Shown here piece by piece: positions 2,853-62,394 of a stretch of 64,000 nt of DNA (position 1 is its first letter; every line of letters begins with the position of its first letter). Both the position numbers and the translations under genes were made by a program. Source of the DNA: Eledone cirrhosa (taxonomy: Eukaryota); assembly GCA_964016885.1 (NCBI GenBank), contig OZ024741.1:331886001-331950000 (forward strand), given 5' to 3'. Below the pieces are notes generated by a model. That model made no database searches. It had not been told where the DNA came from and saw nothing but the letters and a program-made list of their open reading frames with translations.

Positions 2853-3246
2853 TATATATTGGTAAACGGAATAGAAAATGCTGACAAATTGTTCACAGTT
2901 GAAAAATGGTTTAATTAGGAATAAAAGAGTATTAGTGATTGTATGGGTTAGTATTCAGTTGTGGTTTTAAGTTTTTATGTTTTTACCGGTTGCGCATTTC
3001 TAAATGCTTTTCAAAAATAATTTTGAGATAGAGTGTCCGTGCTGTTTGCTCAGATCAGAGCAAACAGCACGGACACTCTATCTCAAAATTATTTTTGAAA
3101 AGCATTTAGAAATGCGCAACCGGTAAAAACTTAAAAACTTAAAACCACAACTGAATACTAACCCATACAATCACTAATACTCTTTTATTCCTAATTAAAC
3201 CATTTTTCAACTGTGAACAATTTGTCAGCATTTTCTATTCCGTTTA

Positions 3247-13788: not shown

Positions 13789-14810
13789 ATTTTGGAAGAA
13801 GAATCAGGATAGAGAGAGAGGTGCTGTACCCCAGCAAATTTTATAAAAGGTGGGTGAATGTGGCAAAGATGGCCCGAGTGGTTGGGTCTTCTCTCTATAT
13901 AAGCCTGTAGGTTGAGGAAAAAGAGGAAGAGAGGAAGGGAGTACTCACTCTGGGTGTTCCTGGAGATGAGGGTTGTACATTTATTCGGGGTGCGTACGTC
14001 CCCTGTGTAACGCCCCCCCCCCCCCTTATTGGCGATTTCAATTGTTATTTGTTATTTTATTAATAGTTTTATTTTCATATACCTGTATGAAAACTCCCCA
14101 TTTGTATTTGTCCCCTTCTTTTGTGCCCTTGTGGCTAATAAAGAAATTTATCTGTGTATGTATCTGTCTACCTGTCTATCTATCTATAAAGGAAACCGTC
14201 GCACACGCATTTGTACACTGCCCGGGCATTACCGACCTGTGGGGCTATGTAGAACGACTATTGTCGCAGGTGGGACCAATCCAGTTGACCACCAAGTCCA
14301 TTGTCATGATCAAACCGCCACCCTCCTTCAAAAACGAAGGAGAGGCAGTTTTCCTTTGTGTGATAGCTATGGCGAAAGAGGTTGTATGGTGGACGAGGTT
14401 AAAAGGGCTGAGGTCAGACACCTTTCTCTCCGGCGAGCAACTGATTCGTTTTTTCAAATATCATTTTGGAAGAAGAATCAGGATGGAGAGAGAGGTGCTG
14501 TACCCCAGCAAATTTTATGAAAGGTGGGTGAATGTGGCAAAGATGGCCCGAGTGGTTGGGCCTTCTCTCTATATAATCCTGTAGGTTGAGGAAAAAGAGG
14601 AAGGGAGTACTCACTCTTGGTGCTCCTGGAGATGAGGGTTGTACATTTTTTCGGGGTGTGTACAACCCCTGTGTAACACCTCCCACCTATTGGGGATTTC
14701 AATTATTATTTGTTATTTTATTAATAGTTTTATTTTAATATACCTGTATGTAAACTCCCCATTTGTATTTGTCCCCTTCTTTTGTGCCCTTGTGGCTAAT
14801 AAAGAAATTT
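13789..14810 (+). mobile_element. Two head-to-tail L1/Tx1-like 3' ends (13789-14148, 14189-14810) in (TATC)n
   Basis: ETVAHAFVHCP zinc-knuckle tail, shared 3' UTR ending gtggctaataaagaaatt, TATC repeats on both sides. Confidence 0.82.
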
Positions 14811-14887
14811 ATCTATCTATAAAGGTATCTTTACTTATATATATATATATCTTTCTGCATCAAAATGTGTTTATATATATATATAAA

Positions 14888-16272: not shown

Positions 16273-16807
16273 CTACCAGGAATTGTGATGGGTAGATAGT
16301 ATCAGCAGTTTGTAAGACCAGAGGAAACATTGTTTCCTTGATCTGATTTGAAATTTGGGATCTTGTTGATTGATTCCACTGAGATATATTTACTTTGTGG
16401 TGCTAAAAATGTTTTATATATTAGAAGTTGAATAGAGTATGCAAGAGAAATGATTGCACTGGTCTGTGCTGGTGATGCGTTTGGAGAGCAAGAGTTATAT
16501 AAATATGTGCTGAGTACTTAAAATGGATGGAACCTGTGGAAGAGGGAGACAAAGATAGACTTATGATAAAGATGTGAAGAATGACCTCAAGAAACTAAAT
16601 CTCTTGAAGGAGATGACACAGTACTGTCAACATGTCATAAGAGAAAGAACCCATCCACCAATACAAGTACTGAAACACTAAAATTAAAGTGATCATTGAG
16701 AAGGGACTGTCTAGTGTTTTGTCCAATTTTCTGTTGTCTTTGCTCACCTTTCTTGATTGATTTCTTATGATTTTATCCACCTGAGACACTTTTTCAAATT
16801 TATATTT

Positions 16808-17575
16808 GATGGTCTTTATTCTCTCTAATCCACGATTTCACAGAACTTATGTTCATCGATTTCAGGGACTTGACACCTTCTTCCTCACTTTTCGTTGCAT
16901 TACCATCTTTGTTTGTTTACTGTCTCACTCATTCCCCCTATTTACGTGTCCCGACGACTTTCTTTAGCCGTTGCTCGCACCAACCAGAGGTATATGGTCT
17001 TTAAAGCGATGAAATACCAATGAAGGCTGGAGGATCACTGATGAAGGACTAAATTTATTCATATGTAACCCATTTGCAACCACGCAGCACGCCATGTTTT
17101 CATATTTTTCATATATATTTTCCTCCGTTGTGACCCGTCTGTTTCTTTCTTACTGCTTCCTCTTTTCTCTGTATCTCTCACTTCCTTTTACCCCCTCTAC
17201 CAGTCACTCTCTCTGTTAGCCTCTTCCTCACACTTTCACTCACTCACTTTCTGCTACTCCCTCTCCTACTTCCTCCTGTTTGACCTGTGCGAGATTCTTT
17301 CCTCACTCACACTTCGACCAGGTTGGATGGTCTTTATTCTCTCTCGTCCACGATTTCACAGAACTTATGTTCATCGGTTTCAGGGACTTGACTCCTTCTT
17401 TCTCACTTTTCGTTGCATTACCATCTTTTTACTGTCTCGCTCGTTCCCCCTATTTACGTGTCCCAACAACTTTCTTTAGCCGTTGCTTGCACCAACCAGA
17501 GGTATATGGTCTTTAAAGCGATGAAATACCAATGAAGGCTGGAAGATCACTGATAAAGGACTAAATTTATTCATA
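16808..17575 (+). repeat. Non-coding 518-bp unit present as a 1.5x direct tandem; related copy at 60735-61122
   Basis: 16808-17064 is repeated at 17326-17575; ends in (TA)n. Confidence 0.88.
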
Positions 17576-17587
17576 TATATATATATA

Positions 17588-20807: not shown

Positions 20808-21310
20808 ATATGGAAACACAAAGCAAGCTTTGTTTAGAAATGGCTAGCAAATTTGAAAATTAGGTAGTAACATGTGCTTACACCGTATTTGACTAAATAG
20901 AATTAGTCTGTTAGTTGGGATTTTTAAAAAAACCTCTGAATGGAAAAAAGGATGAATATTGAGAGGGTTTTTTAAAATCCCAACTAACAGACAAATTCTA
21001 TTTAGTCAAATATGGCGTAAGCACATGTTACTACCTTATTTTCACATTTGTTAGTCATTTCTAAACAAAGGTTGCTTTGTGTCTCCATATTTATATACAT
21101 ATATATACCTGCTATGGTTATATAGCTTCTATGAATGGCGTGTTGGTGTAATGGTAACATATTGGTCTGGCAAACCAAAGATGTGGGTTCGTGTCCCATG
21201 TACATCAATACTCATCCTTTTTTCCATTCAAAGGGTCTTTTTAAATCCCAACTAACAGACTAATTCTATTTAGTCAAATATGCCATAAGCACATGTTACT
21301 ACCTAATTTT
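20808..21310 (+). mobile_element. Fold-back element containing a tRNA-like cloverleaf; ~268-bp direct period
   Basis: 20808-20937 is inverted relative to 20963-21090; the body is repeated directly at 21232-21310; TA flanks. Confidence 0.85.
21137..21207 (+). other. tRNA-like cloverleaf (anticodon loop ctGGCaa), repeat-embedded, probably not a translational tRNA
   Basis: D stem gtgt/acat, anticodon stem ttggt/accaa, T stem gtggg/cccat with ttcg loop, weak acceptor stem. Confidence 0.75.
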
Positions 21311-35546: not shown

Positions 35547-35583
35547 ATATATATATATATATATATACATATATATAAATATA

Positions 35584-35661
<78 letters not shown>

Positions 35662-35669
35662 TGTATATA

Positions 35670-35705
<36 letters not shown>

Positions 35706-35711
35706 TGTATG

Positions 35712-35760
<49 letters not shown>

Positions 35761-35766
<6 letters not shown>

Positions 35767-36290
35767 GAATAAACAAGAGAGATGAACACTAATATAAACA
35801 TACATGTGTTCGAATCGTAAGGACCAAGTTTGCTAGGGTGAAAAAATACTAACTACACCAATATGGTTTGTCAGACTTAATTTTAAATATTAAATTAAGA
35901 AAAATAACAGACCTATATTGGGCAATCGCCTGGTAACAACTAGACAGTTTTGGAGACTGTTTCGCAACATCATATTAAGTGAAGTCCACTCTTTTCTCTG
36001 CTCCTCAGTAGTTGTTGAGAAATTAGTGATCCTTGTTTATTCAATTATATTGTACGGCTCGGAAAAGCTTTTTTCTTAGAGCTATTGTAGTTTTAATGTC
36101 CTGTTAACCCGGCTGCTATTTTTAGCGGCATGGAACTTCGAGACATGCTGGGTTCCGAAGACACATGCGATAATTCTTATCCCACGCAATTCAGTCTCTA
36201 ATATTTTTAGAAGTGGAAGGATCACTAATTTCTCAACAACTACGGAGGAGCAGAGAAAAGAGAGGAGAAGTCGTTGCGTCTTTTAATACA
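35761..36290. mobile_element. Hammerhead-containing non-coding element (inverted arm plus permuted sense copy, ~445-nt monomer)
   Basis: 35761-35777 is inverted relative to 36032-36048, and ~35990-36033 is inverted relative to 36218-36262. Confidence 0.78.
35935..36016 (-). ncRNA. Complete type-I hammerhead ribozyme motif
   Basis: Reverse complement reads aacaacta-CTGAGGA-gca..tgc-GAAA-cagt ctccaaa actGTC-tagttgtt; all three stems pair and the site is GUC. Confidence 0.88.
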
Positions 36291-36414
36291 AACTGCAGGA
36301 TATTTCTAATCCCTTGTTTGGCAAGATTTCTACTGCTGAATGCCCTTACTAACACCAACCACTTTACAACATGTACTGGGTGCTTTTATTGTATAAATTA
36401 CCAGCACTATGGAG

Positions 36415-37115
36415 GGTGTCACAGTGAAGGAGGCAGGGGATTTGATGCAGGAAGTTGAGACTGTGTCGATGAGTGTGGGACTGAGAATGAATGAGACTAA
36501 GACAAAATGTCTGGTAGAGAATGTTGAGAAGCCAGAGTGGATTACTAATGTAGGCGGGAAGCTACTGGAATTAGTTGAGGACTTCCTGTATTTGGGAGCA
36601 AAGATTGGTTATACGGAAGATGATGTGGTTGAGAGGAAGAGCAAAGCCTGGGCGCCATGCCACAGTTTGAAATCGGTGTGGAAGTCGGACCTTCGTGAGT
36701 GGAGTCTGTGCTGCTGCACGGGTTTGAGACTTGGACACTGACCAAGAAACTCACTCAGATGGTGGGTGGGTGCTACATGAGAATGCTGAGGATGGCTCTG
36801 AACATTAATCAGTATACCCTGAGGATGAAAAACTCAGAGCTGTATGGGAGCCTCCCAAGATGTCAGCTCAAAAGTGACACAGAGGAGACTGAGGTTAGCT
36901 GGACATGCTCACCGATATCCAGAGTTGACACTGCACTCAGTGCTCCTGTGGGAGCCCCTGCAAGGACACACTGGAAGAGGAAGACCAAGATTAATGTTGA
37001 TGCCCTAAGGACAGACACTGGTCTATTGGAGATGCAAGACATGGCAACAGTAATGAGGGACAGAGACCGTTGGAGAGAACTCGTCCATGGATCTCGGGAA
37101 TTTTACCCGCCCTAG
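36415..37115 (+). mobile_element. Non-LTR (RTE-like) RT C-terminal fragment, decayed
   Basis: GLRMNETKTK, FLYLG, KAW, ESVLLHGFETWTL and MRDRDRWR; ends at (TAGA)n. No PHD insert. Confidence 0.82.
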
Positions 37116-61439: not shown

Positions 61440-61490
<51 letters not shown>

Positions 61491-61492
<2 letters not shown>

Positions 61493-62390
61493 AATATATT
61501 ACACAAAGAGAAGTGTGTTACACAGTGAGATGTGTGTAAAGAATTATTACAAGTGAGTTTTACCGTTATTGTTAACAATATCTACAGGTTTAGCAATTAA
61601 ATAGAAAAAAAAAAGTCAGAATCAAATCTCTGAATTAGAGTTTTAAATTACCAACCTTATAACTATAAGTTTGCTGATACGAATCTCGTTCGTTTCACCA
61701 CCGATATGTGCAGTATAACAGTTCACAGGATCCTCTCTTTCTGTAATATATTGCATTTGAGCTCAGAAGAAAATTCTCTATTCTTCTTTGAGCTAATATT
61801 ATTATTATTACTGTGAACTGCGGAATACTCTTAATTCCGATTTTTGTATACTTAACGAGCTCCAAATTGTTGAGCTAATAAATTCGAATGGTTGGGCTGC
61901 ACTCTCTAGCATTTTCCCCAATCCATGAGTCCCTTTATTTGATGCAAATAACATGTGATTTCGCCCTACTCTGGGCAGCGTGTATAATAGCTTTCTCTCT
62001 ATCCATGAGGTTAGATGTGTCGTGAACAGAATCTACATTTGCTGACTGAGGATCCTGTGAACTGTTAAACTGCACATGTCGGTGGTGAAACAAACGAGAT
62101 TCGTATCAGCAAACTTATAGTTATAAGGTTAGTAATTTAAAACTCTAATTCAGAGATTTGATTCTGACTTAGTTTTTTTCTATTTAATTGCTAAACCTGT
62201 AGGTGTTGTTCTCGATACAGTAACGGTAAAACTCACTTGTAATAATTCTTGACACACATCTCACTGTGTAACACACTTCTCTTTGTGTAATATATTTGCA
62301 TTTGAGCTCAGAAGAAAATTCTGTATTCTTCTTTGAGCTAATATTATTATTATTACTGTGAACTGTGGAATACTCTTAATTCCGATCCTT

Positions 62391-62394
<4 letters not shown>
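61491..62394 (+). mobile_element. Retrozyme/mini-PLE-like element: 245-bp inverted arm plus 1.2 copies of a 544-nt non-coding hammerhead monomer
   Basis: 61491-61735 is inverted relative to 62048-62298; 61734-61848 is repeated directly at 62278-62394; TA flanks. Confidence 0.88.
62038..62113 (+). ncRNA. Type-I hammerhead ribozyme motif
   Basis: tttgctga-CTGAGGA-(34 nt)-GAAA-caaa cgaga ttcGTA-tcagcaaa; the inverted arm has cgaa/ttcg in stem III. Confidence 0.8.

What the first reader, a model, noticed from the sequence alone, without database searches (positions are those of the whole stretch)
35761..36290. Second permuted monomer (~445 nt) with a fully paired hammerhead
Seen: a minus-strand hammerhead at 35935-36016 has an 8-bp stem I, a 5-bp stem III and a GUC site. 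The plus-strand part starts with the arm's 3' end (cttgtttattcaattat), runs ~170 nt and re-enters the same ribozyme (36218 onward, core mutated to CGGAGGA). Inference: arm plus spacer close into a ~445-nt non-coding circle unrelated in sequence to the 544-nt one. This is the best candidate for an active monomeric ribozyme.
Basis: partly seen in the sequence, partly recalled or inferred. Interest (0 to 1): 0.75.

Follow-up and report, generated by a model that had tools for sequence, protein, structure and literature searches.

The report
Twin-start Penelope-mobilised hammerhead retrozyme copy
This is one damaged, two-armed copy of a dispersed 505-base non-coding repeat carrying a predicted self-cutting RNA fold; the copies end at two fixed sites, each followed by the same small hairpin, which likely marks where a Penelope-type jumping-gene enzyme starts copying a probably circular RNA.

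Summary
The hammerhead fold is real: type I, stems of 8, 4 and 5 bp, intact CUGAGGA/GAAA/GUC core, compensatory changes across three subfamilies. The ~445-nt circle is not. The family unit is 504-511 nt and this copy has lost about 60 nt. It has one complete ribozyme and its arms face opposite ways, so it cannot release a monomer. The family (at least 141 copies, roughly 1,000 by a crude estimate) sits mostly in (TA)n. Copies end at two fixed sites 78 nt apart, each 6 nt before a GGCTC..GAGCT hairpin. Two-armed insertions use one site each in 55 of 57 cases, and arms read through the cleavage site. A coding Hydra-type Penelope element in the same genome leaves a matching footprint, and a published coral Hydra element carries the same hairpin. 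Best reading: a non-autonomous, Penelope-mobilised retrozyme, probably copied from a ligated circle; no RNA evidence was obtained. The 544-nt neighbour does not align but shares the twin hairpin. The scan reported this kind of element before on other DNA of this genome.

The parts
35547..35763 (.). (TA)n/(TATG)n microsatellite: likely insertion target, left flank
   Evidence: 103 of 150 fixed outward ends in the family are flanked by (TA)n
35759..36034 (-). Left arm, 276 nt of the unit (ruler 232-507); its RNA 3' end is the fixed start site E1
   Evidence: 98.6% identical to L002, no private variants
35935..36016 (-). Type I hammerhead fold: stem I 36016-36009/35942-35935, core CUGAGGA 36008-36002, stem II domain 36001-35964, GAAA 35963-35960, stem III to 35944, predicted cut 35943|35942
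   Evidence: covariation across subfamilies
36032..36279 (+). Right, inverted arm (ruler 489-45, then 102 to about 300), joined to the left arm by a 3-nt overlap; atypical outer end, not at a fixed site and without (TA)n
   Evidence: BLAST ends it at 36266, an 11-nt match extends it to 36279 after a gap of about 10 nt
36056..36083 (+). Hairpin 1 (GGCTC, 6-bp inner stem, small 3' bulge, GAGCT), 6 nt after the E1 site; candidate start signal for reverse transcription
36085..36092 (+). Junction of a deletion of about 57-64 nt that removes start site E2 and most of hairpin 2; the cause of the apparent 445-nt size
36217..36266 (+). Second, incomplete ribozyme (5' half only; core CGGAGGA at 36243-36249, private U-to-G change); no GAAA, stem III or cleavage site

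Best explanation
The locus is a decayed two-armed insertion of a dispersed 505-nt non-coding hammerhead repeat (a non-LTR retrozyme) that was likely copied into (TA)n DNA by the enzyme of a Hydra-clade Penelope-like element, probably from a cut-and-ligated circular RNA. Steps. (1) Inferred: a source locus spanning two ribozymes is transcribed, self-cleaves and is ligated to a 505-nt circle. (2) Inferred: the Penelope protein binds one of two GGCTC..GAGCT hairpins; shown: copies end 6 nt upstream of each, at sites E1 and E2, 78 nt apart. (3) Inferred from in vitro work on another Penelope element: both strands of an AT-rich target are nicked and both are extended; shown: two-armed insertions use E1 on one side and E2 on the other. 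(4) Shown: arms run back through the ribozyme cut site and the unit junction, stop at scattered places and join head to head. (5) Inferred for this copy: later deletions removed E2 and the right end. I put family identity and Penelope-type mobilisation at about 0.9 and the circular template at about 0.6.
For: Unit period 504-511 nt; longest ATG ORF 60 aa in two natural multi-unit copies. 141 matches to a 26-nt ribozyme stretch and 218 to the hairpin pattern, reversed-pattern controls 0. 150 of 170 outward RNA-3' ends fall at E1 or E2, 103 of these beside (TA)n. Of 74 two-armed insertions, 57 have both ends at fixed sites and 55 of those pair E1 with E2 (p 2e-14). 126 of 186 fixed-end arms cross the cut site; 3 of 211 5' ends lie at it, 5.4 expected. 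7 of 17 ribozyme pairs change on both sides across subfamilies about 71-80% alike, 0 of 500 shuffles. Both hairpins recur in subfamilies A, B, C and in the 544-nt element. A coding Hydra-type element in G000 has a CUGA(G/A)GA hammerhead, two ends about 70 nt apart in (TA)n, an ACTC..GAGT bulged hairpin just after the first end, and one end of each kind in 5 of 6 readable two-armed loci. The published coral consensus Hydra-2_Amil has GCTC-stem-TT-GAGC near its 3' end (PMC8557442 supplement). Two internal start sites and extension of both strands are shown in vitro for an anole Penelope element (PMC11167929).
Against: No expression, cleavage or circle evidence was obtained. The autonomous partner was not identified: three coding families checked share no alignable terminal sequence, and no second hairpin was found after the second end of the one best studied. 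In PMC11167929 ribozyme cleavage was not needed and uncut RNA was the main template, so read-through of the cut site does not by itself imply a circle. A 1321-nt arm (2.6 units, L201) exists and could supply linear multi-unit transcripts. No strand-biased A-to-G excess (9.95 against 8.76 per 1000). The ribozyme fold is a minor predicted state in unit-length RNA (stem I 0.04-0.18 in three copies; a fourth could not be scored). The covariation alignment has only 12 rows from three subfamilies plus one misaligned row, and the shuffle control ignores relatedness.
Confidence: 0.6

Rival explanations
1. Same non-autonomous Penelope-mobilised repeat, but the template is uncut linear read-through RNA from loci holding more than one unit; the ribozyme only trims transcripts or is a passenger.
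For: PMC11167929: ribozyme mutants do not change insertion and uncut RNA is the dominant substrate. Loci of 1.7-2.6 units exist. Only 1 of 9 predicted frog retrozymes cleaved in vitro (10.64898/2026.07.22.740005).
Against: Linear templates lose about one unit per generation, because the start hairpin lies downstream of the copied part (inference); arms of 800-1300 nt need still longer parents, and none longer than 2.6 units appeared among the 15 best loci for a 906-nt query. The ribozyme is kept by compensatory changes, yet 5' ends do not pile up at the cut site.
Confidence: 0.3
2. The copies are truncated terminal repeats (pseudo-LTRs) of a coding Penelope element, not an independent element.
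For: Same footprint as coding Hydra-type elements; retrozymes are reported to be related to pseudo-LTRs.
Against: The unit closes on itself with a 504-511-nt period; 5' ends are spread evenly round the unit and run into unrelated flanks; the termini of three coding families do not align with it.
Confidence: 0.04
3. Endogenised viroid-like RNA replicon that copies RNA to RNA and is only occasionally integrated.
For: Circular map, no ORF, predicted folding somewhat better than shuffles (z -0.4 to -4.9 on the ribozyme strand of four monomers).
Against: No ribozyme on the opposite strand of the window copy; predicted structure is branched, 62-65% paired, not rod-like; dedicated Penelope-type start signals and hundreds of germline copies.
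Confidence: 0.04
4. One reading: this locus itself encodes an active ~445-nt monomeric circle.
For: Intact ribozyme core in the left arm.
Against: The arms are on opposite strands, only one ribozyme is complete, and 445 reflects a deletion not seen in the other copies mapped.
Confidence: 0.02

Closest known systems
Metazoan non-LTR retrozymes (Cervera and de la Pena 2020, PMC7229834, parts 2-4 of 6 read; Li, Clavereau and Pollet 2026, 10.64898/2026.07.22.740005, parts 1-3 of 5 read)
   Same: Non-coding, low-GC unit with one type I hammerhead, head-to-tail junctions, dispersed in an animal genome that holds Penelope-like elements; proposed there to move through circles using Penelope enzymes.
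   Different: Unit of 505 nt (150-450 in the 2020 paper, up to 972 in the 2026 preprint); mostly about one unit per insertion (median span 552 nt, longest arm 2.6 units) rather than long arrays; stem II closes a 30-nt loop; two fixed hairpin-marked ends and two-armed insertions are not described in the parts read; expression and circles untested here.
Hydra clade of endonuclease-positive Penelope-like elements (Craig et al. 2021, PMC8557442 and its preprint; passages and supplement excerpts read)
   Same: (TA)n targeting, hammerhead near the 3' end, inverted 5'-truncated second arm, one-sided tail; GCTC-stem-bulge-GAGC hairpin in the Hydra-2_Amil consensus.
   Different: No ORF; tail of 78 nt rather than 30-40; two hairpins per unit; the unit closes on itself.
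Anolis Poseidon element PAc in vitro (Frangieh et al. 2024, PMC11167929, parts 1-2 of 4 read)
   Same: Reverse transcription starts internally at two nearby sites that define the tail; both target strands are nicked and extended; AT-rich target; the ribozyme site is read through.
   Different: There the two strands showed no difference in start site and the start lay in an AC-rich stem-loop within the ORF; here the two ends of one insertion almost always use different sites, and each site has its own downstream hairpin.

Membership tests
Metazoan non-LTR retrozyme | Type I hammerhead with intact core in each unit | tested here: met
   all three core motifs intact in 64 of 112 copies (sample partly picked by the ribozyme sequence); covariation
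Metazoan non-LTR retrozyme | Short non-coding unit in head-to-tail repeats | tested here: met
   Period 504-511 nt; 43 of 211 segments exceed one unit, 4 of 228 span two cut sites; longest ATG ORF 60 aa. The window copy itself is not a tandem.
Metazoan non-LTR retrozyme | Self-cleavage of the RNA | not testable with these tools
   Fold only; predicted stem I probability depends strongly on context
Metazoan non-LTR retrozyme | Accumulation as circular RNA | not testable with these tools
   Only contig runs of unrecorded kind were available
Non-autonomous Penelope-like (Hydra-type) element | Two fixed 3' ends defining a one-sided tail | tested here: met
   150 of 170 outward ends at E1 or E2; 55 of 57 pair one of each
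Non-autonomous Penelope-like (Hydra-type) element | Inverted 5'-truncated second arm and (TA)n target | tested here: met
   74 of 129 insertions two-armed; 103 of 150 fixed ends beside (TA)n
Non-autonomous Penelope-like (Hydra-type) element | Sequence similarity of its end to an autonomous partner in the genome | tested here: inconclusive
   Shared bulged-hairpin shape with one coding family and with Hydra-2_Amil, but no alignable terminus in 40 loci of three coding families
Autonomous Penelope-like element | RT plus GIY-YIG ORF | tested here: not met
   No ORF over 60 aa in the unit
Viroid-like RNA replicon | Ribozymes in both polarities or a rod-like circle | tested here: not met
   One polarity only; branched fold, 62-65% paired

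The most novel reading that the evidence does not exclude
A minimal RNA circle that has evolved two copies of a Penelope-binding hairpin, one for each half of a dimeric Hydra-type enzyme, so that both strands of a (TA)n break are primed on the same circle at two set sites 78 nt apart; the recognition signal lies outside the first bases copied and is regained only by going round the circle. This would give a portable 30-nt start signal and direct support for circle-templated retrotransposition.
Probability: 0.3. Interest if true: 0.7.

Novelty: new variant of a known kind. Interest (0 to 1): 0.4.

Why it matters
Animal retrozymes are proposed, but in the papers read not shown, to spread by Penelope enzymes copying RNA circles. 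This family supplies a testable anatomy: two start sites, each with its own hairpin, used one per strand. If it holds, a short hairpin defines what a Penelope reverse transcriptase will copy and where it starts. The locus given, taken alone, is a broken copy, and the scan has already noted similar families in this genome, so the gain from this finding is incremental.

Tried and rejected
Expression: no RNA holder listed; the three runs laid are contigs of one sample of unrecorded kind and only show that the family is high-copy and that other copies carry the deleted stretch. Rfam: no hammerhead model hit. Idea that the two arms add up to exactly one circle: suggested by the window copy (511 nt) but sums in 53 E1+E2 insertions range from 102 to 1012 nt; rejected. 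The negative correlation of arm lengths (rho -0.36) may come from how loci were picked; not used. Same-molecule test: the two arms of one insertion share minor alleles more than arms of different insertions (8 of 29 against 96 of 2704; 87 of 99 against 2442 of 13085), but rare variants are shared within loci no more than with the best-matching other locus (55 of 972 against 40 of 571); this shows same subfamily, not same molecule. RNA-editing scars: none. Argument that no parent is long enough for linear templates: weakened by the 1321-nt arm. A genome-wide count of tandem ribozyme pairs was not obtained; long arrays were judged from the 40 scored candidates only. Partner search: pattern for a second hairpin in the coding family found nothing; two further coding families show no matching terminus. 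Pfam and PDB gave no meaningful hit for the coding element's protein, so its Hydra label rests on my comparison by eye of motifs (DKT, CxC-x5-C linker) with the alignment excerpts. A first hairpin pattern was mis-spaced (3 hits) and was replaced. Supplements of the bioRxiv preprint were not seen and may list related families.

Full report
Observation. The window is AT-rich animal DNA full of microsatellites, in a 3.0-Gb assembly; it looks like a cephalopod genome (my impression, and the wording of earlier scan notes). On the minus strand 36016-35935 folds as a type I hammerhead: stem I 8 bp, CUGAGGA, stem II 4 bp closing a 30-nt loop, GAAA, stem III 5 bp, GUC, predicted cut 35943|35942. A structural scan of both strands found this as the only hit with a perfect core; two weak one-mismatch hits also passed. 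The plus-strand part repeats the arm's 3' end and then the ribozyme's 5' half with core CGGAGGA.

The family. A search of the own genome returned 145 matches from 40 scored of 1913 candidates. A 26-nt ribozyme stretch has 141 matches with at most one mismatch; a hairpin pattern has 218, a few from sister subfamilies; reversed controls gave 0. The overlap of the two lists on contig C1 (21 and 35 loci, 4 shared, counted by eye) gives a crude estimate of about 1,000 copies. Tandem periods are 504-511 nt. Against a natural monomer (L014) used as ruler, the window copy is an antisense arm covering 232-507 joined head to head to a sense arm covering 489-45 and 102 to about 300. The right arm ends off any fixed site, without (TA)n, and has five private changes against none in the left arm. 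With one complete ribozyme and opposed arms this locus cannot release a monomer. Copies differ from the column majority by a median 4.9%, a figure that includes subfamily differences, with a strand-symmetric spectrum, so most are decaying neutrally (inference).

Insertion footprint. I mapped 131 loci (151 fetched for this purpose, 20 dropped as duplicate places; segments under 78% identity or under 29 nt ignored). The first 30 were picked by likeness to the window copy, the rest by ribozyme or hairpin patterns or as further hits. In the first set of 109 insertions, 150 of 170 outward RNA-3' ends fall at ruler 507 (E1) or 78 (E2), and 103 of these lie beside (TA)n; the pattern-picked subset alone gives 107 of 120. 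In the full set, 74 of 129 insertions are two-armed; 57 have both ends at fixed sites, and 55 of these have one E1 and one E2 end (p 2e-14 against a coin toss); 17 have at least one other end. Six bases after each site begins a GGCTC..GAGCT hairpin. Hairpin 1 has a 6-bp inner stem and a small 3' bulge; hairpin 2 folds only by its outer 5 bp. Both persist in subfamilies B and C, about 71-80% alike, with changed loops, and in the 544-nt element at 61488-62393, which otherwise does not align. The hairpin lies downstream of the start, so it is not part of the first bases copied.

The ribozyme. Across 12 rows from three subfamilies and the 544-nt element (that row misaligned), 7 of 17 pairs change on both sides, 93.9% of cells pair, and slid controls pair 24-41%. 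The structure was drawn from the window copy and rows are related, so this is supportive, not a probability. All three core motifs are intact in 64 of 112 copies. Predicted folding depends on context: stem I probability 0.92 for 82 nt, 0.45 for 116 nt, 0.03 for the whole arm, 0.04-0.18 in unit-length RNA. Activity is therefore open. Of 186 arms with a fixed end, 126 run through the cut site, and only 3 of 211 5' ends lie within 6 nt of it (5.4 expected). Templates were thus not cut linear monomers; they were ligated circles or uncut multimers.

The likely enzyme. A neighbouring ORF led to a coding family with tens of thousands of first-look candidates. Its protein resembles Hydra-1_Obim by eye (DKT, CxC-x5-C linker); Pfam and PDB gave no support either way. 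It ends in a hammerhead, then at one of two sites about 70 nt apart in (TA)n, with an ACTC-stem-T-GAGT hairpin just after the first. Five of six two-armed loci with both ends readable have one end of each kind; L213 is ambiguous (12 loci fetched). I found no second hairpin in it, and neither it nor two other coding families align with the retrozyme ends, so the actual partner is unnamed. The published coral Hydra-2_Amil consensus shows GCTC-5 bp stem-TT-GAGC shortly after its ribozyme.

Literature. Cervera and de la Pena 2020 (PMC7229834, parts 2-4 of 6) show circles for coral, mussel and axolotl retrozymes and propose Penelope mobilisation. Li et al. 2026 (parts 1-3 of 5) link retrozymes to pseudo-LTRs and saw cleavage in 1 of 9 elements. 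Craig et al. 2021 (passages, supplement excerpts) describe inverted arms, tails and (TA)n targeting by Hydra. Frangieh et al. 2024 (parts 1-2 of 4) show two internal start sites, extension of both strands, and no need for ribozyme cleavage. Cervera and de la Pena 2014 (PMC4209133, passages) already proposed circular templates for Penelope elements. Three searches and these readings showed no account of twin hairpins or of the one-site-per-arm rule; subscription journals are not covered. Earlier scan notes in this genome reached the same general reading for other families; they supplied the Hydra and hairpin leads, which I tested here, and are not independent support.

Verdict. It works like a retrozyme moved by Hydra-type Penelope machinery and meets the sequence-level tests for both; cleavage and circles remain untested. 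The twin start signal and the one-site-per-arm rule are the notable parts. Interest 0.4.

Noticed in passing
window 61488-62393: The 544-nt element: two-armed, in (TA)n, with hairpins at 61760, 61858 and 62305 of the same GCTC..GAGCT type and a CUGAGGA hammerhead-like motif near 62047 whose stem II opens TCC and closes GGT, as in the coding Hydra-type family.
   Followed up: partly
window 36267-36279: After a gap of about 10 nt the right arm continues with an 11-nt stretch typical of the other branch of subfamily A, whereas the left arm has the first branch's version; unexplained (template switch or chance).
   Followed up: partly
window 16805-17580: A 518-nt-period direct repeat (92%) ending in (TA)n with a CTGATGA/CTGATAA core-like word near its end; no alignment to this family; possibly another retrozyme-like family.
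   Followed up: partly
window 1063 and 30963 (+): Minimal CTGATGA..GAAA motifs without a clear stem III, in a short abundant repeat.
   Followed up: no
window 13789-14820: Two 371-nt direct repeats, 91% alike, around about 300 nt; LTR-like layout by eye.
   Followed up: no
window 3005-3104: Near-perfect 100-nt palindrome inside an inverted and tandem 243-nt repeat.
   Followed up: no
window 21137-21207 (+): tRNA-like hit above Rfam's gathering score (52.5 bits), inside a small inverted repeat.
   Followed up: no
window 36397-37115 (+): Two overlapping open frames that look by eye like the end of a LINE reverse transcriptase; Pfam and PDB gave no hit.
   Followed up: partly
L166 (G000:C3:187851000-187860500): A 4.9-kb block holding a family copy beside a Hydra-type coding fragment occurs three times in tandem, with the protein stretch identical.
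   Followed up: partly
L168-L196: Sister subfamilies B and C (about 71-80% alike, 3846 first-look candidates for B) with recoded ribozyme stems; B-like copies also lie beside coding Hydra-type copies in L127, L130 and L132.
   Followed up: partly
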